64,000 bases of DNA from Alloascoidea hylecoeti. Taxonomy: Eukaryota. Position numbers and translations under genes: made by a program. The DNA lies in the NCBI GenBank assembly GCA_001600815.1, contig BCKZ01000008.1, positions 837,885-901,884 on the forward strand. The letters are read 5' to 3'. Numbering within the stretch: position 1 is the first letter of the stretch; each line of letters starts with the position of its first letter. Positions 233-64,000 of the stretch are shown one piece after another. The notes below the pieces were generated by a model. It did not search any database and was not told the origin of the DNA. It saw only the letters and a program-made list of their open reading frames with translations.

Positions 233-3200
233 AATTAGAGAAAGCAAAAGGAGGGATTAGTGAAGTAAAAATCTTGAAACCAATAGGAGAAGATAAACCA
301 AAGAAGAAAGAAATTGATAAATTAAAATTCTCTTCTGAAAATGATAAACAAACGGAAGTTGGAATACCAACTGAAAATAATAAAGTAAAAGGAAACTCCC
401 TTAATATTGAAACTCCTAATATGCCTATAAAAGACAAAGCATTAGAAAATAAGAATCTAAGTCCCAAAGAAAATGTGGAGCCCACAACAAAAGAAAGATC
501 AATAAGTCCTTCTAAGACAAAACTTCCTCCTTCATTAATGCCATCAAGGATTCCAACACCGATGAATTTGCCCTCTAGATCTAAAAATTTATTACCACAA
601 ATTCCAGTTACCTCTTCATCTCCTGATACTGGAATGAAGCAAATTGGCTCAGATATTTCATTACCAAATATAACAGATGATTCAACCAATTCTTCACAAA
701 ATCCAACCTCTCATCTGCCACCCATTGACCACCCATCGGAAACCACACCCCGAGCTTTGGAACATACTGCTTCAAAATCTCCCCCTTTGAGGGACACTTC
801 TGTTGGACCTTCGGAGCTACCTCTTCCTCCCGTCGATACTTCAACTGCAATTTCAAGGAAATCTTCCCCACCTTTGCTCGATGAATCTTTGGAAGCTTTT
901 GTAGATTGTCTTGATGGATCAAACAGCCCACGGATATCTCCTGTAAGAGATGTAGTAGTTGGATCGTCTTCACCTTCTATATCACCTGTTGATGTTTCTA
1001 CCAGTTGGTCATGGGTACCTAAACCACCGCTTCTTGTAGATAGATTGTCGGATGCCCAAGTGTTGAATACTCAGGATCAGACAACAAGTCCGAGAACAGT
1101 TTCTCCAAACAGGGACATGTCAATTGAGGTATTACCAAATTCACCCTCTTATATTGATGTACCTACCAATTATTCAAGAGAACCAACGCCGCCTCCGCCC
1201 AATATGGATGTATCCTTAGAAGCAATCGCTCCGACTTGTGATAAATCATCAGCTGCACGTTCTTCCTCATTAGCTAGAGATGTTTCAATAGGGTCTTCAG
1301 AGATCTCACTTCCAAATGTAGATGTTTTCACAAGTTATTCACGGGCTATAACACCTCCTATCCCTCATATAGATGAATCTTCAGAAGCAATTGCATTAAC
1401 TTTTGATAAATCTTTAACTGCACAATCACTGGCTAGAGATGTTTCAGTAGGAAGCTCAGAAATTTCACTTCCCAATGTTGATNNNNNNNNNNNNNNNNNN
1501 NNNNNNNNNNNNNNNNNNNNNNNNNNNNNNNNNNNNNNNNNNNNNNNNNNNNNNNNNNNNNNNNNNNNNNNNNNNNNNNNNNNNNNNNNNNNNNNNNNNN
1601 NNNNNNNNNNNNNNNNNNNNNNNNNNNNNNNNNNNNNNNNNNNNNNNNNNNNNNNNNNNNNNNNNNNNNNNNNNNNNNNNNNNNNNNNNNNNNNNNNNNN
1701 NNNNNNNNNNNNNNNNNNNNNNNNNNNNNNNNNNNNNNNNNNNNNNNNNNNNNNNNNNNNNNNNNNNNNNNNNNNNNNNNNNNNNNNNNNNNNNNNNNNN
1801 NNNNNNNNNNNNNNNNNNNNNNNNNNNNNNNNNNNNNNNNNNNNNNNNNNNNNNNNNNNNNNNNNNNNNNNNNNNNNNNNNNNNNNNNNNNNNNNNNNNN
1901 NNNNNNNACATCAACTGGATCATCAGAACCTATTTTGGATTATGTTGATGTCTTGACAAGTTATTCACGGGCTATAACACCCCCTCTTCCTACTGTGGAT
2001 CAATCTTCTGAAGCAATTACCTCAACTTTTGATAAATCGGCAGTTGCTCAGTTTATTTTACCTATTGTTGTAGACACATCAACTGGATCATCAGAACCTG
2101 TTTTGGATAATGTTGATGCTTTCACTTATTATTCACGGGAGTCGACTCCTCCACCAGATATTGATGAGTCTTTACAAACAACACCCACTACTTTTGATAA
2201 ATCGGCTGCTGCGTCATATTTTCCTCCAACGAACGATGCTTCGGTCGGTAGTTCCAAACCTTCATACACTATAGATGCTCTAGTCAGTGCTGAACCTTTA
2301 TTTATTGATAATTGGACTAAACCTGAAATTTTTTTACCTCTTATTGATGTTTCAGCTGGGCCTTTATTACGTCCTCCGTCTCCTATAGATGCAGCAACAA
2401 CTACTTCTATTCTTGAGATACGAGACAACTCAACTGAACCAGTGAAGTCCTTAGACTTAATTGATACCGCAGTAGGTTTATCTCATGTTCTACCTCCTCC
2501 TGTCGATGCCTCTACAGAAATTCTACCCTCCACTTTTGATGTCGCTGCTGGTTCATCAGTTATTACAGTACTACGAGAGATAAATGTTGATTCTTCACGT
2601 AGTTTAACTCTATCTAATGATAGATCTACCCCGAATACAGTTGATGCCTGGACAATGGCGATGAAACAGCCTGTTTGGTTAGATGCTGCAATAGGTCCTT
2701 CAAGATCTCCTTCACCTACCATTGATGCCGCTATGGCTACCTCTTTGAAAACTAAAGATGGGTGGACAATACCTAATAGGGTTCTTTCACCTTTTGATAG
2801 ATCTGTTGACGCTTGTTACTCTATTTGTGACACTGGAATTGAGACCTGGACTTCACCAATCCGAGATGCTAACATAGAGGTGGCCAAAATTACTAACGAT
2901 ATCTCTGTAGGACCTTCAAGACAGCCATCACCTTCAAGAGATGTTTCTACTAACATTGATATTTTAACAACTGATGCGGCTATTGGTAGGAATAGATTAC
3001 CTACTCCACCAATTGATGTAGCTACGAATGCATTTTCGCTTACAAAAGATACTAACACAAGTACAGATGTTTTTCCGACAAGAGATATAGCAATTTGTAA
3101 TTCTCCTATGCATTCAGTAACTGACGTTGCTACAGGAACCCCAGGCCTTCGGACTCAAGAAGCAGCAGTTGAACCGATCGCGACTAGTATGATTTCTGAA

Positions 3201-34613: not shown

Positions 34614-34922
34614 CGAGAGGAGAAAATATGGCTATGGGTTGTACTTCGGATATGCTTAATATCCTCGATCCGACTACTAATATACTAGCTATTATAATTA
34701 ATATTAATATTACGTCCAATTTATGTGACTACTTTTCTCTTGGAAAAAAATAAACCGTGGTAATCCTAGTGTTCAACGGAAATATTATTTAAATTTGATA
34801 TAAGATGAAGTCATCTTTAATATTATTATGCCCCAAATTAAATAACTTGTTTATAAGAAGTTCTATAAAAACGACAAGATCCGCACTTTTATCTGCATCT
34901 TTAATAATCATTAACAATTATA

Positions 34923-36575
34923 ATGGATAACCATATTTATGAAGGTTATAGGGGTCCTCGGGGCCCAGGAAGCGCAAGTGACGACCGTTTTAATAGAAAT
35001 GTTTCATGGGGTCGGCCACCGAGGGGTCCTCCATCTCCTGGTAGGCATGGCCAACAACAATATCAAGGACCTCCAACTCAGGGAGTACCTCTGAATTTCA
35101 GTCCACAATATGGTCATCATGGTCAATTTCGACCGCCACCAGGTCCGGGTTCCTATAATCAATTTTCTGCGCCGATTGGACCTCCTCCACCAAATTTAAA
35201 TATCCCCAACCGTCCCCCAAATCAATATTCTCCAAATCAGTATTCCCCACCTCAATATCCACCAAATCAAGGCCACCACCATCATCACCATCATTCAAAT
35301 TCAAGTTCAAGTTCAAACTCAAATTTATACAACAGTGTCTCTAGCAATTATAATAATGATCACCAAGGTCATAACTCAAATATTGCAACCGGCGTTGGTG
35401 TGGCCGCTGCTGCCGCTGCGGGTGGCTATATCGCGAACTCTTACTTAAAACCATCAAGTAATGCACCAGAAGCGCCAGTTCCACAACTATATAATAATCA
35501 AACTAATAATTCTATCTCACCTAATAATATAAATCAAAGTGGTCGGAAGCAAAATCAGTACGCCGAAAACAGTAGTTCTGATGTTTCTACCAATAACGAT
35601 GGCAATTTCTCTCCTATTCCGAGTGCTCCACAGGCATTTAGTGATGAACTTAATGATTATAGTTTCTTATATTCAAATTGTAAAGGAAAGAAAAAAGCAT
35701 TGATAGTTGGTATCAATTATATTGGTCAAAAGTATGAATTAAAAGGTTGTATAAATGATGCTCATAATTTATCTGATTTCTTAGTTCAATATTATGGTTA
35801 TGAGAAAGAAGATATGGTAATGTTAACTGATGATATACTTGATGCAACTCATAGACCAAATAGAGAAAATATCATAAGAGGTATGAAATGGTTGGTTCAA
35901 GATTCAAAACCAAATGATTCTTTAGTTTTCCATTATTCTGGTCATGGTGGTAGAACTGAAGATTTAGATGGTGATGAAGATGATGGATTTGATGATGTTA
36001 TTTATCCTGTAGATTTTGAAAAGAATGGATTCATTGTTGATGATGAAATGCATGAGATTATGGTAAGGCCTTTAGAAGCTGGTGTTAGATTAACCGCTTT
36101 ATACGATAGTTGTCATTCTGGTACCGCTCTCGATCTCCCATATGTCTATTCAACTAAAGGTATAATTAAAGAACCAAATCTTTTAAAAGAAGCAGGTCAA
36201 GGATTATTAGAAACGCTTGACAATTATAATTCTGGAAATTTTGAAGGTATAATTTCAACAGCAACATCATTAGCAAGAAGAGCTGGTAGAACAGAAGAAG
36301 ATAGAAAAAAAGTTATCACCACAAAAACTTCACCAGCTGATGTTATTTCAATTTCTGGTAGTAAAGATAATCAAACTTCTGCCGATTCATTTGCTGATGG
36401 TAAAGCAACTGGTGCAATGTCCCATGCTTTCATTTCAGTTCTTAAAAAAGATTTAAATCAAAGTTGTCTTAGTTTATTAAATGGTATGAGAGATGAATTG
36501 AAAGATAAATATAAGCAAAAACCTCAATTAAGTGCTTCTCATCCAATGGATATGAATATCAAATTTATAATGTAA
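34923..36575 (+). CDS. MCA1: Metacaspase with long P/Q/N/H-rich N-terminus
   Basis: [23 protein letters not shown] and DSCHSG catalytic dyad, QKPQLS. Confidence 0.95.
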
Positions 36576-37019: not shown

Positions 37020-38402
37020 TCAACTTTTGTTTAGGTTTTCACTATTCAATCTTTTAAATTTTGTCCATGGAAAGTAATAAAATAATGACCCAGTTAAACA
37101 TATTAGTGTCACAATCACAGTAGCTGCACCAAATATAGCACCTATTACCTTAAATGTAAAAAAATTGGCATGTATACCAANNNNNNNNNNNNNNNNNNNN
37201 NNNNNNNNNNNNNNNNNNNNNNNNNNNNNNNNNNNNNNNNNNNNNNNNNNNNNNNNNNNNNNNNNNNNNNNNNNNNNNNNNNNNNNNNNNNNNNNNNNNN
37301 NNNNNNNNNNNNNNNNNNNNNNNNNNNNNNNNNNNNNNNNNNNNNNNNNNNNNNNNNNNNNNNNNNNNNNNNNNNNNNNNNNNNNNNNNNNNNNNNNNNN
37401 NNNNNNNNNNNNNNNNNNNNNNNNNNNNNNNNNNNNNNNNNNNNNNNNNNNNNNNNNNNNNNNNNNNNNNNNNNNNNNNNNNNNNNNNNNNNNNNNNNNN
37501 NNNNNNNNNNNNNNNNNNNNNNNNNNNNNNNNNNNNNNNNNNNNNNNNNNNNNNNNNNNNNNNNNNNNNNNNNNNNNNNNNNNNNNNNNNNNNNNNNNNN
37601 NNNNNNNNNNNNNNNNNNNNNNNNNNNNNNNNNNNNNNNNNNNNNNNNNNNNNNNNNNNNNNNNNNNNNNNNNNNNNNNNNNNNNNNNNNNNNNNNNNNN
37701 NNNNNNNNNNNNNNNNNNNNNNNNNNNNNNNNNNNNNNNNNNNNNNNNNNNNNNNNNNNNNNNNNNNNNNNNNNNNNNNNNNNNNNNNNNNNNNNNNNNN
37801 NNNNNNNNNNNNNNNNNNNNNNNNNNNNNNNNNNNNNNNNNNNNNNNNNNNNNNNNNNNNNNNNNNNNNNNNNNNNNNNNNNNNNNNNNNNNNNNNNNNN
37901 NNNNNNNNNNNNNNNNNNNNNNNNNNNNNNNNNNNNNNNNNNNNNNNNNNNNNNNNNNNNNNNNNNNNNNNNNNNNNNNNNNNNNNNNNNNNNNNGAAAA
38001 CATCCAAGGAAAACATTTTTTGATGGATCTTTCATTAGTTTTTTGAAGTTATCAGGGAATAATAAATTTTGTGCTATGAATAGGAATGATGTAAGAAGTA
38101 CTAAAAGACATTCTATCGCAAACATTACCAGACCAAGTATTCGTAAGCCATGAGTAGGAAATACAAATTCGTGAAGAATACCTGAGGACATACCGGTTCC
38201 CATAGTCGATGCAAACCAACTGAAAAATACAAATTATGGTTAATCATTACTGTATATAAAAAAAATGCAATTGAAATACTTACAATGGTGTGAAATCTTC
38301 TGTTAGTATAATAAATACTGCCCTCCAATAAGGTATTTTCTTCTCAAGCGTTAAGCCAGAATTTATATGATCATCATTATTATTATTAAGAATCTTTTCC
38401 AT
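37020..38402 (-). CDS. SSU1: SLAC1/TDT-family sulfite efflux pump, copy A (middle lies in the N gap; intron 38220-38283; N-terminus shortened or disrupted)
   Basis: Near-identical to 39515-40828 on both sides of the gap; same intron position; first in-frame ATG at 38402. Confidence 0.7.
37181..37995. other. Assembly gap (815 N) inside SSU1 copy A
   Basis: N run; the equivalent stretch in copy B is about 666 nt. Confidence 1.
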
Positions 38403-55598: not shown

Positions 55599-56837
55599 AT
55601 GAATATTAAAATCTTATCATTCAATACTTGGGGAATGAAATATAAGTCAATAAATCGAGAAAAACGATTAAAGGCAATATCTCATAAAATTTTAAAAAAT
55701 TCCGATAATTTTGATATAATTGCATTACAAGAATTATGGAGTGAAAAGGATTGGATATATTTAAAAAATTTAACAAAATCAATTTATAAATATCAAAAAA
55801 GATTTTGTTCTGGTATTGTTACTGGACCGGGACTTGTTATATTATCAAAATATTCAATAGAATCTTGCTTTTTGTATCGATTCCCGTTGAATGGGAAACC
55901 ACTTGATTTAACAAGAGCTGATTGGTTTGCAGGGAAAAGTGTTTCTATTTCAATAATAAGAATATCATCAGATATAACAATTGCGTTATTAAATGCTCAT
56001 ATTCATGCTTCATATGGTTCTGGAGATTCAAGTTATTTATGTCATCGAACTTGTCAAGCATGGGATATTTCTAGAATTTCTAGATTATTAATGGATGCTG
56101 GACACATCACTATTTTGGTCGGAGATGTCAATAGTGAACCAGAAAGTCTTCCTCATTTATTACTTACAAAATATTCTGGATTGCGTGATGCTTGGATTGA
56201 TAATCATGGAGAATTTAAAGATGAAATCGGAGATTTGTCACCAGAAGAACAAATCCAGAAGGCTGGTATAACCGCAGATAGCCAGTTAAACTCATTTAGA
56301 GAAACGTATCCTATTGATAGTGCCCAAAGATTAGATTATATTTTTTATGATTATAAGAGATCTAGAGTAGCTAGCTGTAATGTTACGTTTATAGATAAAA
56401 TTAAAGATGATGACGGAGAAAAAGAAATGAGTTATTCAGATCATTTTGCAGTAGAAGTTGAACTGGAGGTTGGCGTTAATAAACATGAACATGAATTTTC
56501 AAATTTAAAAGATGGATTTAAAAAAGAAGAAGAAATGGAATTATTATCAAATATTATGGAAGTAATTGATGAATATAAAAAGTATAATATTATCACAAGA
56601 GAAAAAAGATTAATGAATACATTTTCTTGTTTTATATTAGTTCTTGGATTACAATTTGGAGTGTTTTGGGTTAAAAATCCAATTCTAACACTTTTTATGA
56701 TGTTTATAGTTGTTTTTATTACTATTATTGGGATTGTACAGTTCTGTTTTGGGTGGGCTTTTGGCAAACAGGAGCAAAGAACGCTTCAGGAGTATGAAGA
56801 ACAAATTCAGATGCATACCATGCGTATTGAATATTAA
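55599..56837 (+). CDS. ISC1: Inositol phosphosphingolipid phospholipase C (neutral sphingomyelinase family)
   Basis: NTWG, ALQELW, GDVNSEP, RLDYIF, SDHF; two C-terminal TM helices. Confidence 0.92.
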   Translation: MNIKILSFNTWGMKYKSINREKRLKAISHKILKNSDNFDIIALQELWSEKDWIYLKNLTKSIYKYQKRFCSGIVTGPGLVILSKYSIESCFLYRFPLNGKPLDLTRADWFAGKSVSISIIRISSDITIALLNAHIHASYGSGDSSYLCHRTCQAWDISRISRLLMDAGHITILVGDVNSEPESLPHLLLTKYSGLRDAWIDNHGEFKDEIGDLSPEEQIQKAGITADSQLNSFRETYPIDSAQRLDYIFYDYKRSRVASCNVTFIDKIKDDDGEKEMSYSDHFAVEVELEVGVNKHEHEFSNLKDGFKKEEEMELLSNIMEVIDEYKKYNIITREKRLMNTFSCFILVLGLQFGVFWVKNPILTLFMMFIVVFITIIGIVQFCFGWAFGKQEQRTLQEYEEQIQMHTMRIEY

Positions 56838-57001
56838 CATTTAATTTATTTTAATTGTATAATTATAATCTTTCATTTATAAACCTTTAGTTTTGATTAT
56901 AGAAATTCAAATTACCCAAATATTTCTTTTAATTTCTTCAGGAAAATCACACTTGTACTTTTACTTGTAATTTTATCAGCTAGTAATAAACATATTATTA
57001 T

Positions 57002-58261
57002 ATGACTATGAAAGATTCCTTATCAAAAACAGAGTTATTGACTTGGTTAAATAACCTTTTAAGTTTAAATTATACAAAAGTTGAACAATGTGGTACAGGA
57101 GCTGCTTATTGTCAAATCATGGACTCCCTTTATTATGATATACCAATGTCAAAAGTTCATTTTAATGGTCATTCAGAAATTATTTATTATCAAAATTTTA
57201 AAATACTACAAAGATCTTTTGTTAGACATGGTATTGATAGAGATATGGATGTTGAAAAATTAGTCAAATGTCGATTATTGGATAATTTAGGACTTTTGCA
57301 ATGGTGTCATAAATATTGGATTGATAAAGTTAATAATGATAGTAATTATGGATATGATGCTGAATATAGAAGACGAAAATCTCCTGGTGGTTCTCAAGCA
57401 GCACTAGGTTCTAATTATAATGATAGAAGACCAAGTTCAGGTAATATTCGTGATCGGAATCGTAATAGTGTTACAGGAAGTATTATGTCTCGTCGTTCTT
57501 CAACTGCTTCGTCTCAAACAACTCCTGGATCGTTTAGAAATAACTTAAAACGAACTTCAACAAGGCGAACTTCTAATAGTGGGTCTCCTTTACAAAGTCG
57601 TAAAGGGTCTCATCCTCAATCGACATCTGGGTTGTCTCCTTTAGCTTTGAAATTTAAACGAAATAGTGTTGATAGTAATGAGGCGGCGGGTCAGCCATCT
57701 CCACAATTACAAAAAGCTCATAATGATCACATGGTGGTAACTCCGATATCAATACTAGAAGAAACCCAACAAGACACAATACCAACTCCAAATAATCATG
57801 AAGTCTCACAAGATAGGGTTGATTCAAGATCATCAATAAAAAAATTAAAACAAGGAATTTCAGATATAAATATTTCAGATCCAATTATATCTGAACAAAC
57901 TACAACACCAATCCAAGAATATGATTTTTTAATATCAAAACAATTAAAACAAACAACTTCAACAATTATAAAATTAGAATCTGAATCACAAGAACTAACA
58001 GATACATTACAATTTTTAGAAACAGAAAGAAATTTTTATTATAATAAATTAAGAACAATTGAAATTTATTTACAAACTATGTCTGATGATTTAGGATTAG
58101 AAAAACAAAATTCTTATCCCATAAAATTACAAAAATTAATTGGTGATTATATTATTGTTGGACCAAGTACAAAAAAATGGTCAATTACTTCTTTATTAGC
58201 TCAGGTACAAGAAGCAATGTATAGAACTGAAGAAGGATTTCAAATTCCAAGTATGAATTGA
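57002..58261 (+). CDS. BIM1: EB1-family microtubule plus-end protein (divergent)
   Basis: CH domain ELLTWLN.LL.LNYTKVEQCGTGAAYCQIMDS; EBH domain LETERNFYYNKLRTIE...YRTEEGF. Confidence 0.85.
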   Translation: MTMKDSLSKTELLTWLNNLLSLNYTKVEQCGTGAAYCQIMDSLYYDIPMSKVHFNGHSEIIYYQNFKILQRSFVRHGIDRDMDVEKLVKCRLLDNLGLLQWCHKYWIDKVNNDSNYGYDAEYRRRKSPGGSQAALGSNYNDRRPSSGNIRDRNRNSVTGSIMSRRSSTASSQTTPGSFRNNLKRTSTRRTSNSGSPLQSRKGSHPQSTSGLSPLALKFKRNSVDSNEAAGQPSPQLQKAHNDHMVVTPISILEETQQDTIPTPNNHEVSQDRVDSRSSIKKLKQGISDINISDPIISEQTTTPIQEYDFLISKQLKQTTSTIIKLESESQELTDTLQFLETERNFYYNKLRTIEIYLQTMSDDLGLEKQNSYPIKLQKLIGDYIIVGPSTKKWSITSLLAQVQEAMYRTEEGFQIPSMN

Positions 58262-58477
58262 TACTTAATATAATAGTGCTTTTAAAAGGTTACAAAATAA
58301 TATTGATCTATGATGATGATATTTTCTCGGGATTATTTCTAAAATGTTATAACAATTTCGTCATTATTATAAAACTATGTGCATAATAATAATAATAACC
58401 CCTAGGGCCTATGACAATATATTAATGCACATAAATTAATCATTACGATAGATCATGTTAAAATATATACAATGGTT

Positions 58478-58478
<1 letters not shown>

Positions 58479-58561
<83 letters not shown>
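58479..58561 (+). repeat. Pure poly(T) of 83 nt (poly(A) on the AFG3 strand)
   Basis: Uninterrupted homopolymer. Confidence 0.95.
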
Positions 58562-58564
<3 letters not shown>

Positions 58565-58619
58565 CTATTTATATCAATCTATCAATAAAAGAGAAGTGAA
58601 TGAAAAATGCAATATAATT

Positions 58620-60992
58620 TTAAACTTGTGGTGATGTTTCTTGTGGTGGAGGAGGAGGAGCAGATTTTCCACCATCTAAATATTTTTCAAAAGCTTCATT
58701 TCTTTCAACAAATGGTCTTGGACCTAATAATCTAATCATATCACTTCGAACAATGACTTCTTTATTTAATAATTCTTCGGCAATTAAATTAATTTCTTTT
58801 AATTTTGATTTTAATAAAATTTGACATTTTAAATGTGCATCATCAATAATTTTTTTAATTTCTTCATCAATTATTCTACCAGTTGTTTCTGAATATGGTT
58901 TTTGAACAGTCATTTGTTCTCTATCATCATTTAAATTTATAAAACCTAATTTTGATGACATTCCAAATCTTGTAACCATTTCTTGTGCCATTTTTGTAAC
59001 TTTTTTAAAATCATCTGATGCACCAGTTGTAACCGATTTAAAATGTAATTCTTCAGAAACTCTACCACCTAAAGCCATAATCATTCTATCTAAATATTGT
59101 TTTTCATTAATTAAATATTGATCCCCTGGTAAATATTGGGCATAACCTAAAGCTCCTTGACCTCTTGGTATAATTGAAACTTTTAATAATGGATCAGCAA
59201 ATTCTAAAAACCATCCACAAATTGCATGTCCTGCTTCATGATAAGCAACTGTTTTTTTTTCAATTGGATTTAAAACTCTTGATTTATTTTCTAATCCTGC
59301 AATTACTTTTTCAATTGCATCTTCAAAATTTTTAAAAACTACTGTTGATGCATCTTCTCTTGCTGCTAATAAAGCAGCTTCATTACAACAATTTGCAACA
59401 TCAGCACCTGAAAAACCAGGAGTTAAAGCAGCTAATTTTCCAGAAATTAAATCTAAATCTAAATCAGTTGTAATTTTTTTTAAATGAACCATAAATATTG
59501 CTTTTCTACCTTCAATATCAGGTCTATCAATTGTAATATGTCTATCAAATCTACCAGGTCTTAATAAAGCTTTATCTAAAACGTCAGGTCTATTTGTACC
59601 AGCTAAAACAACAACATGATCAGTTGTTTCAAAACCATCTAATTCAACTAATAATTGATTTAAAGTTGCTTCTCTTTCATCATTACCACCAGCCATTTTA
59701 TTATTTCTTGATTTACCAATTGCATCAATTTCATCAACAAATACAATTGATGGAGATAATTCACGAGCACGTTTAAATAAATCTCGAACACGACTTGCAC
59801 CAACACCAACAAACATTTCAACAAATTCAGAACCCGATACAGATAAAAATGGAACATTTGCTTCACCTGCAGTAGCTTTTGCTAATAAAGTTTTACCAGT
59901 ACCTGGTGGACCAGATAAAATTGCACCTCTTGGAATTTTTGCACCTAATTTTTCATACTTTTTTGGATTTTTTAAAAATTGAACAAATTCTTGAATTTCT
60001 TCTTTTGCTTCATCACAACCAGCAACATCTTTAAAATTCATTTTAATATTTGTTTCTTGATTAAATAATTTTGCTTTTGATTTACCTGCATTAAATAAAC
60101 CATTTGATCCACCTAAACCTTTTGTTAAATTTGATTTACTAACCCAATATAAACCGCCAAGTATTAAAATTGTTGGTATAAAAGATAAAAAATATGGTGT
60201 TAATGTTGAAGAATTTTTATATGAAACTGGTATACGTTCTCTTGTTGGGATTTTTAATAAATTTTGAGCATCATCTAATTGTTTTTCAAAAATATCAATT
60301 GAACCAATATTAAAAGTAACAGTTGAACCTCCTCTATTTCCATTATTTGAAGAATTTGAAAAATTATTATCAATTAAAAAAGCAGTTACAAAAGATTTAT
60401 TATAAACTTTCAATTCTTTAACAAGTCCTTTATTAAGATAATCAGTTTTAAATTGTTGAAAAGTTATATGCTTATCATTAATTGAACCATTATCATTAAG
60501 GAAAAGTCTTGATATTTCAAAAGCAATATATAATGATAGAGCTATTGTTGCCAATACGTTAACAAATATTTCATTATTTCCACCTCCATTTCCATTATTA
60601 TTTCCATTTGGTGGTTGATTGTTATTTCCATTTCCATTACCGTTATTATTACCATTTGGTTGATTATTTCCAGATGGTTTATTATTGTTTAAAGGACTAT
60701 TTCGGAAGAACAGAGGTTTTGTAAAACTATTTTTTGGGATGATATTCTTAGGAATAATACTTTTTGAAATAAACCAATTTTTAAACATTCTAGTGATACC
60801 ATTTTTATTATTTAAACCAGTAGATAATTTAGAACCCATACCATATGATATCGATCTCGAAACAATTGAACTTGAACTTGTGATTGTAATTGGACGGGAC
60901 AAATTACGAATCCCTAGTTGAATACCTAGAGGATTCACAGTCCCAGATCTGGCTATTATCCCAGTCCTAACGGACGGAAATAACAACAGCAT
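58620..60992 (-). CDS. AFG3: Mitochondrial m-AAA protease subunit
   Basis: Walker [26 protein letters not shown]-terminal [16 protein letters not shown] as in Afg3; likely ATG at 60992 begins an Arg/Ser-rich presequence. Confidence 0.9.
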
Positions 60993-61134
60993 TTTTTTAG
61001 ATTTAATGTTGTTGCTGATTTTGGTTGGTGAAGGAAGATTTTGGAGGTGTGCCACTGGATCTTTCTTGGTTTGTATTCTGAAGAATGGGTGTAGATGTGA
61101 GCATGTTTTTATTATCTTCAACACATTTCGTAGA

Positions 61135-61193
61135 AATATCAATATCAATATCAATATCATTATCAATATCATTATCATTATCAATCATTATCA
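61135..61193 (+). repeat. (AATATC/ATTATC)n hexamer microsatellite in the AFG3 / U1A-U2B'' divergent promoter
   Basis: About 10 imperfect copies. Confidence 0.9.
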
Positions 61194-61265
61194 AAATGTC
61201 AGAAATTAGTGAAACATCAACGTGAGTTTATATGATATCACTAAATATATAATTAAAGAATACTA

Positions 61266-61940
61266 ATGAAAGATTACAGAGTATATGTTCGAAATTTAAA
61301 AGAACGAATTCCAATACCTAAATTAAAAGAAACACTACAAACACATTTTTCAAAATATGGTAATATATTATCAATAACAGCTCATAAAAATTTAAAAATG
61401 AAAGGTCAAGCATTCATTGCATTTGATAATATTGAAAGTGCTAAAAAATCAATTTTAGAATTAAATGGATTAAAATTATTTGAACAAAAAATTGAATTAA
61501 AATTTTCAAAAAAAGATAGTGATTTTGTAATTAAAAATAAATTTAAAAATGAAGATGATAAATTTAATGAATATTTAAAGAAAAGGAAAGCAGATAAAAT
61601 AAAACGAGAAGAAGAAAATAATAAAAATAACAGCAATAATGTTAATAATAATGTTAATAATAATGGTGGAAGTAAAAAGAAAAGGAAAACAAATGCAAAT
61701 TCTAAGTTACCGGCAAATAAGATATTATTTATTGAGAATTTACCAAATACAATAACACAGGATAAATTAGTCGAAATATTTGGAAAATATAAAGGATTTT
61801 TGGAAGTTCGATTAGTTTCTATTAGAAAATTAGCATTTATTGAATATGAAAATGATGAGGAGGCAATTGTCGCTAAAAAGGCAACAGAGGACTTATTAAT
61901 TGATGGAGCTGAAGTGTTAATAAGCTATGCAAAGAAATGA
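61266..61940 (+). CDS. U1A/U2B'' (SNF-like) two-RRM spliceosomal protein
   Basis: VYVRNLKE...KNLKMKGQAFIAF; second RRM NKILFIENLP...EVRLV...LAFIEY...ISYAKK. Confidence 0.9.
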   Translation: MKDYRVYVRNLKERIPIPKLKETLQTHFSKYGNILSITAHKNLKMKGQAFIAFDNIESAKKSILELNGLKLFEQKIELKFSKKDSDFVIKNKFKNEDDKFNEYLKKRKADKIKREEENNKNNSNNVNNNVNNNGGSKKKRKTNANSKLPANKILFIENLPNTITQDKLVEIFGKYKGFLEVRLVSIRKLAFIEYENDEEAIVAKKATEDLLIDGAEVLISYAKK

Positions 61941-61958
61941 GTAGGAATAGTTTTTTAA

Positions 61959-62444
61959 TTAAAATTTATGTTTTGTACTATAATCCTTTGGACTTGCAAC
62001 CAAACCTTTCCCCTTTCTAGCACCTCTATAAATGGTTTCTATTATATCAATGATTTCCTGTTTATCCTCCAGCGGGAAATTCAGTTTATTGTTGTTTCCC
62101 GTTCCAAAGTCGCACATCATATGCTTGTTTCTGAAGAAAAACATGACGGTGCACGGATCGAACAGCTCGTACATGTCGTTGAAGTCCGGCACCTCCGTGT
62201 TGTCGCACAGATAAATGACGGCGAAGTTCTTCACCTTCTCCGCGATGCTGTACAGGAGCTCGTCCATTTGAAGACACTCTCTGTCCCCGTCGCTGCCAAA
62301 ACGCACGACCACCAGGCGGTCCTCCTCTATCCAGTCGGTCAGTCCGTGAACGGCACCACAGCAGGCAAACAACAACTTACCGGACAAGATGGCCTGGTCC
62401 ACGTGCCATCCCGTGTGCAAGTGCGGCAGAAAAATGCTTCCCAT
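61959..62444 (-). CDS. DIB1: U5 snRNP thioredoxin-like protein; intron 62327-62380
   Basis: LPHLHTGWHVDQAILS|EEDRLVVVRFG...HMMCDFGTGNNNK; GTAAGT..GACTGAC..TAG intron. Confidence 0.95.
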   Translation of the reverse strand: MGSIFLPHLHTGWHVDQAILSGKLLFACCGAVHGLTDWIEEDRLVVVRFGSDGDRECLQMDELLYSIAEKVKNFAVIYLCDNTEVPDFNDMYELFDPCTVMFFFRNKHMMCDFGTGNNNKLNFPLEDKQEIIDIIETIYRGARKGKGLVASPKDYSTKHKF

Positions 62445-62581
62445 GTGGATAAATGTTTTCGGAGGCTGTGCTGCGAGGTCGTGCCGAGGTCTTGCTGAGG
62501 TGAGGTGGCGGCCACGTGACGCGCCTTCGGAGATATCCGGGCCTGCAGACCTGCCCCTCCAGACCTGCCCCCCCCCCCCAG

Positions 62582-63466
62582 ATGCTCAGATTCGCCGTTT
62601 TGGGCCCCCCGCGCGTGGGGAAATCCGCCTTCGTCTACCGCCTGGCCACCAACTGTTTCCTGGAGACCCACTATCCCACGGCCGACCCCGCGTCCGTCCT
62701 CGTCTGCGCCGCCGCCGACGTGCAGGCCGAACTGGTCGACACGCGGCCCTTCGACGTGGAAACCGTGGTCCCCTTTCTGTCCAGGTCCCTCAACACCGAC
62801 CAGACCAAAGCCTACTTCGGCGACCCTGGGCCTGTGGGCCGTGCGGGCTCCATCGCCACCCCGCTGCTGATCGGCAGTGGCCTGGGCACCCTGAACGCGA
62901 GGATAGACGGTTATTTCTTCCTATACTCCGCGGCCCCGTCCGCCTCCGAGGATCCGCTCCTACAGCTACAGTATTTAAGATCGTCCATACGTGATGCCTG
63001 GATATCCTACTTCGAGTATCAGGACGACAAGTTAAGAACCCAGGAATCCGACATTTATAGTTTTATTGGTGGCATAAAATCTCTCTGGAGAGATCAGAAC
63101 TTGAATCAAAATCAAAAAGACTCAATCCTAAATAAATCTGCTAAAATCCTAAAATCTGAAAAAATCACTGAAAGTCATTTATCTTCTTCACAAGAAGACC
63201 CGAAAAACTATGACTCAAACAATTTAACTTCAACTGATATTCTACCTCCAATTATCATAATTGTTACCCATGTAAATCACCAAAATGCAAATCAACTTTT
63301 AATTAACAAAGGTGAAACTTTTGCAAATAAATATGGCCATGAATTTATTAAAATTGATAATTTAACTGGTTTAAATATTGATTATGCTTTACAAAAAATG
63401 ATTGATATTCAACAAAATAGAAATAAAATTAAAAATTTAAAATTAAAATTTAATTTAAACAAGTAA
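62582..63466 (+). CDS. Atypical Ras-superfamily small GTPase-like protein
   Basis: FAVLGPPRVGKS P-loop, effector-like HYPT, IDGYFFLYS, PPIIIIVTH, G.TFANKYGHEFIK; first ATG at 62582. Confidence 0.75.
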   Translation: MLRFAVLGPPRVGKSAFVYRLATNCFLETHYPTADPASVLVCAAADVQAELVDTRPFDVETVVPFLSRSLNTDQTKAYFGDPGPVGRAGSIATPLLIGSGLGTLNARIDGYFFLYSAAPSASEDPLLQLQYLRSSIRDAWISYFEYQDDKLRTQESDIYSFIGGIKSLWRDQNLNQNQKDSILNKSAKILKSEKITESHLSSSQEDPKNYDSNNLTSTDILPPIIIIVTHVNHQNANQLLINKGETFANKYGHEFIKIDNLTGLNIDYALQKMIDIQQNRNKIKNLKLKFNLNK

Positions 63467-64000
63467 ACAAGTAAACAAGTACAATAACACATGAACGATG
63501 CTAATAGTTAATAGTTCAACTTTTTTTATATATTTATTTATGCTCTTTATTTATTATGTTTTGTTGTTGCTTTTCTTAATCTTAGATCTTTGATGTCGTA
63601 TATGCAAGTTGATCGTTAAACTCAATATAAATTGTAATATCATAACCACAAACAAAAAACAATTCAAACCCCATTCTAAATATTATATTCAGATTTAATA
63701 AAAGCATTCCATATATCGATTTAATAGACGTTTAAATTCATTAAGATGATAAACTTGACACATATTATGAACTACTAGTAAGGTATTGAAAAAATATAAG
63801 AATGATGAAATATGGTATGCATTGTATGTACTATGAAGAGACAAATTCTGACCTGATGTTTAGCGAAATATTACTTCTTTCGAATTCTTATTCCTTTTCA
63901 TCTTTGATTAACTAACAACTTATTACTATTAAAATGGTCTGCTTTGTTTGCTTTGTTTTTTTTAAGAATGACCAAACAAAAATTAGATTAATATATAATT

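What the first reader, a model, noticed from the sequence alone, without database searches (positions are those of the whole stretch)
62140..63050. Sharp GC island centred on the DIB1/Ras-like divergent promoter, decaying inside both ORFs
Seen: GC reaches 44/60 at 62701-62760 versus 13/60 at 59941-60000. Third codon positions, the DIB1 intron and the 137-bp promoter are all GC-shifted, yet the 3' parts of both genes return gradually to A/T-ending codons with no break in frame. The centre carries CACGTGAC (62513-62520), CAGACCTGCCCC twice and a C12 run (62568-62579). Horizontal transfer is unlikely because DIB1 is a conserved intron-containing gene and the boundaries are gradients. Inference: a long-lived local substitution bias, such as a recombination hotspot with GC-biased gene conversion or a GC-rich promoter-associated replication origin.
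Basis: partly seen in the sequence, partly recalled or inferred. Interest (0 to 1): 0.72.

Follow-up and report, generated by a model that had tools for sequence, protein, structure and literature searches.

The report
Extreme GC spike at yeast promoter
About 1 kb covering a shared promoter and the first parts of two ordinary genes in a very AT-rich budding yeast has become extremely GC-rich, most likely as the footprint of a long-lived recombination hotspot; the process is known, but this case is unusually strong.

Summary
The window is 31% GC. A roughly 990-bp block (62065-63054) reaches 70% GC in 300-bp windows, and no other part of the 64 kb exceeds 51%.

The block covers the 137-bp divergent promoter, most of DIB1 including its intron, and the first ~150 codons of a Ras-like G-domain gene. 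Third-codon-position GC is 0.84-0.89 inside and 0.09-0.11 outside. It falls off gradually on both sides, around a centre at about 62554 inside the promoter, next to a C12 run and a 14-nt tandem repeat.

It is not an assembly chimera. One contig of the likely source run spans it at flank depth, and two independent samples bridge its edges.

Synonymous sites, intron, intergenic DNA and amino-acid composition are all shifted. None of 10 distant relatives' loci has such an island, and no donor lineage shows up.

Best reading (about 0.6): a long-lived promoter recombination hotspot acting through GC-biased gene conversion, the extreme end of a weak 5'-to-3' GC3 gradient in the other 22 ORFs. Recombination itself was not measured.

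The scan has noted similar GC spikes on other DNA.

The parts
62065..63054 (.). GC island as a whole (best two-level box fit): 59% GC over 990 bp, up to 70% in 300-bp windows
62445..62581 (.). 137-bp divergent intergenic region (shared promoter), 66% GC. The centre of symmetry of the island lies here: 62554 from the two GC3 midpoints, 62560 from the symmetric fit
62513..62520 (+). CACGTGAC E-box. I recall this as matching the Cbf1/CDEI-type consensus. Three other CACGTGAY sites in the window have no island
62542..62569 (+). Two tandem copies of a 14-nt unit (CCTGCAGACCTGCC / CCTCCAGACCTGCC), at the fitted centre of the island
62568..62579 (+). C12 run, the only G/C homopolymer of 8 or more in the 64-kb window, 2 bp before the Ras-like ATG. 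A Logan contig of run X2 breaks here
62381..62444 (-). DIB1 exon 1 (64 nt)
62327..62380 (-). DIB1 intron, 54 nt, GTAAGT...ACTGAC...TAG, 54% GC
61959..62326 (-). DIB1 exon 2 (Pfam DIM1, 203 bits). GC3 falls from 0.7-1.0 to 0 towards the stop codon
62582..63466 (+). Ras-like G-domain ORF, 294 aa, a member of an uncharacterised budding-yeast family. GC3 is about 0.9 for codons 1-120 and 0.05-0.15 at the 3' end
62000..62135 (.). Left GC3 gradient: logistic midpoint 62069, 10-90% width about 133 bp
62870..63210 (.). Right GC3 gradient: logistic midpoint 63039, 10-90% width about 338 bp

Best explanation
The island is the accumulated footprint of a strong, long-lived recombination-initiation hotspot in the nucleosome-poor divergent DIB1 / G-domain-gene promoter of an AT-rich budding yeast. 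Double-strand breaks made at or near the oligo-C / tandem-repeat core (about 62540-62580) produce heteroduplex and conversion tracts reaching roughly 0.5 kb to each side. Mismatch repair in those tracts favours G/C over A/T (GC-biased gene conversion). G/C alleles therefore fix more often at every kind of site inside the tract zone, against the genome's strong AT-ward mutation pressure.

Shown here: the composition pattern, its shape, its centre, its presence in independent samples, and its absence in distant relatives.

Inferred: that breaks occur there, that repair is GC-biased in this species, and that the species outcrosses often enough. The plateau and background GC3 imply a population-scaled bias B of about 3.7-4.4. 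This is my arithmetic, from the levels and the standard equilibrium formula GC* = 1/(1+kappa*exp(-B)).
For: 1. All site classes are shifted together. GC3 is 0.84-0.89 inside against 0.09-0.11 outside. The intron is 0.54 and the intergenic region 0.66. In the Ras-like protein, residues 1-150 are 31% GARP against 23 +/- 2% in 11 homologs at the same columns, while residues 151-294 are 10% GARP against 19 +/- 2%. At family-conserved columns, replacements raise codon-position-1+2 GC in the N part (10 up, 6 down, 8 same) and lower it in the C part (2 up, 8 down, 3 same). This points to a non-selective fixation or mutation bias, not codon selection.

2. Shape. GC3 midpoints at 62069 and 63039 give a centre at 62554 and a width of 970 bp. 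The symmetric fit puts the centre at 62560, and the likelihood falls by more than 3 units at 62520 and at 62600. That places the centre inside the 137-bp promoter, on the tandem repeat and C12 run. The width is on the order of yeast conversion tracts: medians of 1.8-2 kb in S. cerevisiae (passages of PMC3649680).

3. The edges are gradients. A logistic fit beats a step by 5.4 and 1.8 log-likelihood units, and 0 of 100 bootstraps under a step model reach that on either side.

4. The rest of the window shows a weak version of the same thing. In 22 other ORFs, GC3 of the first 100 codons is 0.26 against 0.19 for the last 100; 15 of 22 ORFs go that way (Wilcoxon p = 0.018). Pooled GC3 falls from 0.32 (codons 0-25) to 0.16 (beyond codon 300).

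5. It is genuine single-copy genomic DNA. One contig of X1 covers 61195-64000 with 0 differences at depth 57, against 54-59 for the flanks. Independent X2 and X4 contigs cross the left edge, and an X4 contig (62938-63774) crosses the right gradient.

6. Strain X4 is identical to the window over 4,550 laid bases (56001-60599) but differs at 14 bases plus 2 indels over 2,321 laid bases (61195-63774). A haplotype breakpoint and locally raised diversity beside the island fit past recombination there, but this is a single case.

7. It is lineage-specific. Of the 10 metagenome loci encoding relatives of the Ras-like gene, none has its highest 300-bp GC window at the 5' end of that gene (maxima 0.46-0.61, z up to 3.7, against z 5.0 here).
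Against: - No recombination, break or linkage data exist for this locus or species in what I could reach. Whether the yeast has outcrossing meiosis was not tested.
- The measured conversion bias in S. cerevisiae is small (b = 0.013; PMC3649680 passages).
- Described yeast GC3 peaks are broad and shallow, for example about 35% against 11% troughs in 15-gene windows in C. albicans (PMC2997560 passages). B of about 4 on a 1-kb scale is therefore demanding.
- Only 1 of 22 intergenic regions in the window is like this; the others are 0.16-0.38 GC. The three other CACGTGAY promoter sites carry no island.
- The profile is a plateau with shoulders, not a simple decay. An exponential-decay gBGC model, fitted to mixed site classes over a wider span, fitted best (log-likelihood -1062.3 against -1068.0 to -1068.4) but placed the centre at 62641, 60 bp inside the Ras-like ORF, with a decay length near 1 kb.
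- The two slopes differ: 133 bp against 338 bp.
- Inside the island, all 6 listed S/W differences between the window and strain X4 have G/C in the window and A/T in X4. This cannot be polarised. Three of the six rest on a contig of depth 2.4, and 5 further rows of that table were not shown.
Confidence: 0.6

Rival explanations
1. A local GC-ward mutation or repair bias not tied to meiosis. Examples are recurrent mitotic breaks or fork stalling at the C12 / tandem-repeat (possible G-quadruplex) element, repaired by a GC-biased polymerase or by mitotic gene conversion in a diploid.
For: It predicts the same composition pattern: all site classes shifted and centred on the oligo-C element. C12 is the only long G/C homopolymer in 64 kb. 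CpG observed/expected is 1.0 in the island against 0.66 in the background, so the local mutation or fixation regime differs.
Against: I know of no described break-repair process that gives a net AT-to-GC mutation bias of this size. The weak 5' GC3 gradient in 22 other ORFs fits a general promoter-linked process better than one fragile site. Nothing here separates mutation bias from fixation bias.
Confidence: 0.15
2. Selection for GC-rich DNA at this locus. Candidates are a promoter-associated GC-rich replication origin of the Komagataella (Pichia pastoris) type, or a chromatin or nucleosome-exclusion requirement.
For: GC-rich, promoter-associated, early-firing origins exist in one budding yeast (PMC3945215, abstract and passages). 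The core holds a factor-binding-type E-box and an oligo-C tract.
Against: The TYGAAC core of the GC-ACS is absent from the 137-bp intergenic region; the only match in 62000-63100 is TCGAAC at 62158, inside the DIB1 coding sequence. GC-ARS elements are under 200 bp and sit in long intergenes (median 869 bp). Here 850 bp of coding DNA is shifted and the intergenic region is 137 bp. Selection on a short element does not explain GC3 near 0.9, or GC-ward amino-acid changes, 400 bp away.
Confidence: 0.08
3. A patch introgressed or horizontally transferred from a GC-rich yeast, which replaced the central 1 kb by homologous recombination.
For: The contrast with the flanks is very large, and the left edge is fairly steep (about 133 bp). 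The relatives' loci examined have no island, so it arose in this lineage.
Against: - Both edges are better fitted as gradients than as steps (0 of 100 bootstraps each).
- The patch is centred on the promoter, which would be an unlikely accident.
- The N-terminal (island) part of the Ras-like protein is 34-39% identical to all 11 homologs, with none standing out.
- DIB1 exon 2 is at most 82% identical to anything among the 120 best hits, which range from fungi to animals.
- Read depth equals that of the flanks.
- CTG codons sit at conserved Leu positions both in the island (DIB1) and in a background gene, so there is no code mismatch.
- Sequences of 25% and 69% GC would share too little identity for homologous replacement (inference).
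- I recall no budding yeast with GC3 near 0.9.
Confidence: 0.07
4. Assembly chimera or contaminant DNA.
For: None found. Coverage of the GC-rich core is low in run X4 (depth 1.1-2.4 against about 8), which is what GC bias in sequencing would give.
Against: An independently built contig of X1 (4,076 nt, depth 57) covers 61195-64000 with 0 differences. X2, a metagenome from another study, covers 61195-62579 and 62568-62928 with 1 difference. X4, another isolate from another study, covers 61195-62445 and 62938-63774. Both reading frames continue through the edges.
Confidence: 0.02

Closest known systems
GC spikes at stable, promoter-type recombination hotspots attributed to GC-biased gene conversion (birds, dogs, and grass genes with 5'-3' GC3 gradients; recalled, with search listings of PMC11161765 and PMC11703093)
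   Same: About 1 kb wide, centred on a promoter-like feature, with all site classes shifted and a 5'-to-3' decline of GC3 inside genes.
   Different: Here it lies in a budding yeast, with much greater contrast (GC3 0.1 to 0.9). Recombination at the site has not been measured.
GC3 peaks along Saccharomyces and Candida chromosomes that correlate with recombination hot spots (Lynch et al. 2010, PMC2997560, passages read)
   Same: Yeast; synonymous-site GC raised where recombination is thought to be high; attributed to biased gene conversion.
   Different: Those peaks are described with 15-gene sliding windows and are shallow (C. albicans about 35% against 11% troughs). This one is a single 1-kb island reaching about 90% GC3.
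Meiotic gBGC measured in S. cerevisiae tetrads (Mancera 2008 as analysed by Lesecque et al. 2013, PMC3649680, passages read)
   Same: The mechanism invoked: mismatch repair in conversion tracts of about 1-2 kb favouring GC.
   Different: The measured bias there is only 0.013. The strength implied here (B of about 4) needs a much hotter site, more outcrossing or a larger population.
GC-rich promoter-associated replication origins of Komagataella phaffii (Liachko et al. 2014, PMC3945215, passages read)
   Same: A GC-rich element in a promoter of a non-Saccharomyces budding yeast.
   Different: The defining motif core is absent from this intergenic region. Those elements are short and are not reported to shift neighbouring coding sequence.

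Membership tests
gBGC footprint of a recombination hotspot | GC raised at synonymous, intronic, intergenic and non-synonymous sites alike | tested here: met
   GC3 0.84-0.89 against 0.09-0.11. Intron 0.54, intergenic 0.66. GARP 31% against 23 +/- 2% in homologs.
gBGC footprint of a recombination hotspot | Centred on a break-prone feature (a promoter in yeasts), with a width on the scale of conversion tracts | tested here: met
   Centre at 62554-62560, inside the 137-bp promoter, and width 970 bp. S. cerevisiae tract medians are 1.8-2 kb. Caveat: one alternative model put the centre at 62641.
gBGC footprint of a recombination hotspot | Gradual decay with distance rather than sharp junctions | tested here: met
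   Logistic beats step on both sides; 0 of 100 bootstraps each.
gBGC footprint of a recombination hotspot | Excess of AT-to-GC substitutions on the lineage, polarised with an outgroup | not testable with these tools
   No close relative is available. The nearest GUT2 homolog is 50% identical, and the Ras-like relatives reach 21-41% identity in their best segment.
gBGC footprint of a recombination hotspot | W-to-S alleles segregate at higher frequency than S-to-W alleles | tested here: inconclusive
   Only three samples. Six of 6 listed S/W differences in the island have G/C in the window and A/T in X4. They are unpolarised, three rest on depth 2.4, and 5 rows were not shown.
gBGC footprint of a recombination hotspot | Directly measured excess of meiotic breaks, conversions or crossovers at the site | not testable with these tools
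   No such data could be reached.
Komagataella-type GC-rich replication origin (GC-ARS) | 20-bp GC-ACS motif with TYGAAC core in an intergenic region | tested here: not met
   No TYGAAC in 62445-62581. The only match in 62000-63100 is at 62158, in the DIB1 coding sequence. Only the 6-nt core could be tested; the full motif matrix was not available to me.
Komagataella-type GC-rich replication origin (GC-ARS) | Autonomous replication activity / ORC binding | not testable with these tools
   Needs an experiment.
Introgressed or horizontally transferred patch | Sharp junctions and a closer affinity of the patch to a donor lineage | tested here: not met
   Gradient edges. N-part identity is 34-39% to all 11 homologs. 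DIB1 is at most 82% identical to any listed hit.
Assembly chimera / contaminant | Reads or independent assemblies fail to cross the junctions, or depth differs | tested here: not met
   Contigs from three studies cross the edges. X1 depth is 57 against 54-59 in the flanks.
GC-rich structured RNA gene in an AT-rich genome | Match to an RNA family or tRNA | tested here: not met
   No tRNA in the window. In 61500-63600 the only Rfam match up to E = 1 is a 16-bit chance hit outside the island.
Point centromere (CDEI-CDEII-CDEIII) | CDEI-like box followed by about 80 bp of more than 90% A+T (definition recalled) | tested here: not met
   CACGTGAC is present, but its flanks are 66% GC.

The most novel reading that the evidence does not exclude
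A self-reinforcing ('runaway') hotspot. In a genome this AT-rich, a GC-rich, nucleosome-excluding core (C12 plus the tandem repeat) attracts the break machinery. Biased conversion then makes the surroundings still more GC-rich, which strengthens the hotspot further. The outcome would be a few extreme, fixed, very long-lived islands that dominate recombination in their regions, making yeast hotspots readable from sequence alone.
Probability: 0.12. Interest if true: 0.7.

Novelty: new member of a known kind. Interest (0 to 1): 0.45.

Why it matters
If the reading holds, this is a very clean natural example of how strongly recombination-linked fixation bias can rewrite sequence. It pushes third-codon positions from about 10% to about 90% GC. 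It also shifts the amino-acid make-up of one half of a protein while the other half drifts the opposite way. All of this happens within 1 kb, in a yeast, where such footprints are usually faint.

It would mark a candidate hotspot, and a candidate core element (oligo-C plus tandem repeat), that can be tested directly. It also warns that codon-usage or selection analyses on such genes would be misled.

As it stands, this is one locus explained by a known process, without direct recombination data.

Tried and rejected
- Whole genome: none is held for this window, so similar islands could not be counted genome-wide.
- Word-based protein search with the Ras-like ORF found nothing at E <= 0.001. The exhaustive search then found 46 relatives.
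- No RNA holder was listed among the sequencing runs.
- Run X9, another organism, laid only short conserved pieces, for example 69 nt of DIB1 at 85% identity. It gave no usable outgroup.
- Earlier-findings look-ups by place and by sequence returned nothing.
- The exponential-decay gBGC model on mixed site classes fitted best but gave an off-promoter centre (62641) and a decay length of about 1 kb, probably absorbing broader trends. I did not rely on it.
- On mixed site classes, the symmetric logistic fit did not beat a box. The gradient became clear only with third-codon positions analysed side by side.
- Donor search by comparing N-part and C-part identities to homologs gave no signal. DIB1 is too conserved to place.
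- A CUG-clade code mismatch was considered and rejected. CTG aligns with conserved Leu in a background lipase gene (aa 141) and in DIB1. This rests on few positions.
- Translational selection was rejected, because the intron, the intergenic DNA and amino-acid composition shift too.
- The long ORFs on the + strand at 61968-62498 and 62389-62994 overlap DIB1 and the promoter. I take them as chance open frames in GC-rich DNA.
- Literature searches surfaced no description of a 1-kb island of this amplitude in a budding yeast. That covers only those searches of the held library.
Full report
**Observation.** The window is 31.2% GC, with two N runs at 1483-1907 and 37181-37995. Between about 62065 and 63054 the GC content climbs to 0.62-0.69 in 200-bp windows, then returns to 0.18-0.34 on both sides. 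In 300-bp windows the maximum is 0.697, against a mean of 0.312 and an sd of 0.077. The only other stretch above 0.48 reaches 0.507 at 34915-35300, which is the Pro/Gly-rich start of a metacaspase ORF. Zero of 1000 permutations of 60-bp blocks reached the observed 900-bp maximum of 0.612.

**Anatomy.**
- On the minus strand lies DIB1. Exon 1 is 62444-62381. The intron is 62380-62327: 54 nt, GTAAGT...ACTGAC...TAG, 54% GC. Exon 2 is 62326-61959. Exon 2 scores 203 bits against Pfam DIM1, and its best solved-structure match is human TXNL4A/hDim1 (219 bits).
- On the plus strand, 137 bp away, starts a 294-aa ORF (62582-63466). It has a weak Ras match: 25 bits, cut-off 21.6, residues 4-54.
- An exhaustive search found 46 relatives of this ORF at E <= 0.001, the best 36% identical. 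The named ones are uncharacterised proteins of Komagataella, Scheffersomyces, Pichia and Ascoidea. The alignment keeps the family's conserved blocks, and the Atlas look-up agrees on an Ascomycota cluster with a weak Ras signal. It is therefore an old resident yeast gene.
- The intergenic region is 66% GC. It holds CACGTGAC (62513-62520), two tandem 14-nt units (62542-62569) and a C12 run (62568-62579), the only G/C homopolymer of 8 or more in 64 kb.
- The neighbours are ordinary: an EB1/BIM1-like gene, an AFG3/FtsH-type protease and an RRM protein. Zn-cluster factors and other fungal genes fill the rest of the window. No tRNA and no Rfam family lies in the island.

**Not an artefact.** Three studies hold this DNA.
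- In the run that may be the source, one independently built contig of 4,076 nt covers 61195-64000 with no difference. Its depth is 57, against 54-59 for the flanking contigs.
- A wood-decay metagenome has contigs over 61195-62579 (1 difference), 62568-62928 and 63010-64000.
- A second isolate from another study has contigs over 61195-62445, 62714-62946 (depth 2.4) and 62938-63774.

Independent samples thus cross the left edge twice and the right gradient once. The island is single-copy DNA of this organism.

**Shape.** Using third-codon positions only, a logistic transition fits better than a step on both sides.
- Right side: midpoint 63039, 10-90% width about 338 bp, levels 0.89 to 0.09, gain of 5.4 log-likelihood units.
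- Left side: midpoint 62069, width about 133 bp, levels 0.11 to 0.84, gain of 1.8 units.
- In each case 0 of 100 bootstraps simulated under the step model reached the observed gain.

The midpoints give a centre at 62554 and a width of 970 bp. A symmetric fit on mixed sites gives a centre at 62560, with the likelihood falling by more than 3 units at 62520 and at 62600. That places the centre on the tandem repeat and C12 run inside the promoter.

Two results cut against a tidy picture. On mixed site classes the logistic fit did not beat a box. An exponential-decay model fitted best overall but put the centre at 62641, with a decay length near 1 kb.

**All kinds of site are affected.**
- GC3 is about 0.9 in the plateau. 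The intron and the intergenic DNA are also GC-rich.
- Third positions in the Ras-like plateau are 59% C and 27% G; at its 3' end they are 46% T and 40% A.
- Residues 1-150 of the Ras-like protein are 31% G/A/R/P and 19% F/Y/M/I/N/K. Eleven homologs at the same columns are 23 +/- 2% and 28 +/- 3%.
- Residues 151-294 go the other way: 10% and 43%, against 19 +/- 2% and 28 +/- 4%.
- Departures from family-conserved residues raise first- and second-position GC in the N part and lower it in the C part.
- DIB1, which is strongly constrained, changes mostly at synonymous sites.

This rules out codon-level translational selection. It points to a local bias in mutation or fixation.

**Context.**
- The other 22 ORFs of 120 aa or more have GC3 of 0.10-0.29. 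Their highest 30-codon GC3 is 0.67, against 0.93 here.
- The 21 other intergenic regions are 0.16-0.38 GC. This is therefore not the ordinary state of promoters in this window.
- The other ORFs do show a weak 5'-to-3' decline. GC3 is 0.26 in the first 100 codons against 0.19 in the last 100, in 15 of 22 ORFs (Wilcoxon p = 0.018). Pooled GC3 falls from 0.32 in codons 0-25 to 0.16 beyond codon 300. A translational 'ramp' of rare codons could contribute to the first bins.
- I read the island as the extreme of a general promoter-linked trend.

**Relatives.**
- The lineage is isolated. The nearest GUT2 homolog is 50% identical, and DIB1 exon 2 is at most 82% identical to any of the 120 listed hits.
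- Ten metagenome loci encode relatives of the Ras-like gene, at 21-41% identity in the best segment.
- None of the ten has its highest 300-bp GC window at the 5' end of that gene; maxima are 0.46-0.61, z up to 3.7.
- DIB1 lies upstream on the opposite strand in 2 of the 10 loci (the same sequence from two assemblies), 2.4 kb away.
- The island is thus not an old property of the gene pair. The comparison cannot date it more finely.
- No donor stands out. The N part is 34-39% identical to all 11 aligned homologs.

**Mechanism.** The best-supported account is GC-biased gene conversion at a long-lived break hotspot in the promoter.
- Established knowledge, recalled: yeast meiotic breaks concentrate in nucleosome-poor promoters, and such hotspots are evolutionarily stable because promoter function preserves them. 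The Lam and Keeney 2015 paper itself was not read; I saw only its title phrase counted in papers listed.
- Read in passages: S. cerevisiae conversion tracts have medians of 1.8-2 kb and favour GC alleles by 0.013 (PMC3649680).
- With a background GC3 of 0.09-0.11 and a plateau of 0.84-0.89, the equilibrium formula gives B of about 3.7-4.4 (my arithmetic). That is strong for a yeast. It requires a very hot site, frequent outcrossing or a large population, none of which I could test.
- The plateau-and-shoulder profile would follow if most tracts reach about 0.4-0.5 kb from the break before ending. This is an inference.
- One piece of population evidence is suggestive but anecdotal. The second isolate is identical to the window over 4,550 laid bases to the left (56001-60599). 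It differs at 14 bases and 2 indels in 2,321 laid bases across and to the right of the island. All 6 listed S/W differences inside the island have G/C in the window; three of them rest on a depth-2.4 contig, and 5 rows of the table were not shown.

**Rivals.**
- A non-meiotic local mutation or repair bias at the oligo-C element gives the same static pattern. Only frequency spectra or mutation-accumulation data can separate the two.
- A Komagataella-type GC-rich origin is not supported. The TYGAAC core is absent from the intergenic region, and an origin does not explain shifted codons.
- An introgressed patch is disfavoured by the gradients, the promoter-centred symmetry, equal read depth and the lack of any donor affinity.
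- A chimera is refuted as far as contigs can show.

**Comparison with what is known.** GC peaks linked to recombination are long known in yeasts. As described, they are broad (15-gene windows) and shallow, for example C. albicans peaks of about 35% against troughs of 11% (PMC2997560, passages). Narrow promoter-centred GC spikes are described for animals with promoter-type hotspots; I saw only search listings for these. My three literature searches on this theme surfaced no budding-yeast island of this amplitude, which speaks only for the held library. Earlier notes of this scan report GC spikes read as gBGC on other DNA, in Giardia and Saccharomyces. I did not test those.

**Verdict.** The feature is real, striking and reproducible, and its most likely cause is of a known kind, seen here at unusual strength. 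The mechanism is inferred from static sequence at one locus. The decisive tests are a genome-wide island count, a recombination map, allele-frequency spectra and a sister species, and all lie outside what I could run.

Noticed in passing
window 2655-61940 (22 ORFs): There is a general weak 5'-to-3' decline of GC3. The first 100 codons average 0.26 against 0.19 for the last 100 (15 of 22 ORFs). Pooled GC3 falls from 0.32 at codons 0-25 to 0.16 beyond codon 300. GUT2 (0.40 against 0.10), the lipase (0.38 against 0.16) and AFG3 (0.38 against 0.04) are the strongest cases.
   Followed up: partly
window 60587-63774: The second isolate (run X4) is identical to the window over 56001-60599, then differs by SNPs and indels from about 60.6 kb to at least 63.5 kb. 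A diverged haplotype block thus begins next to the island.
   Followed up: partly
window 38001-62000 against 62065-63054: CpG observed/expected is 0.66 in the AT-rich background and 1.0 in the island. The cause of the background CpG deficit was not examined.
   Followed up: no
window 58468-58574: A long poly-T tract, read as a run of Phe in a spurious ORF. All Logan assemblies break there.
   Followed up: no
window 1483-1907 and 37181-37995: Two runs of N (425 and 815 bases), either masked stretches or assembly gaps. They produce the apparent GC troughs in coarse profiles.
   Followed up: no
window 62582-63466 and alignment A1: The Ras-like protein lacks an insert of about 130 residues that 9 of its 11 aligned homologs carry between the ETYYPT and VELIDT blocks. 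It also lacks the segment after YSAVPS. The family has no characterised member among the names returned.
   Followed up: partly
window 34915-35300: The second-highest GC peak in the window (0.507). It coincides with the Pro/Gly-rich N-terminus of a metacaspase ORF, so it reflects amino-acid content rather than an island.
   Followed up: partly
window 60600-61100 (minus strand): The N-terminal region of the AFG3-like protease holds Asn/Gly-rich low-complexity repeats that vary by indels between samples: 12-nt and 6-nt insertions and a 4-nt deletion.
   Followed up: no
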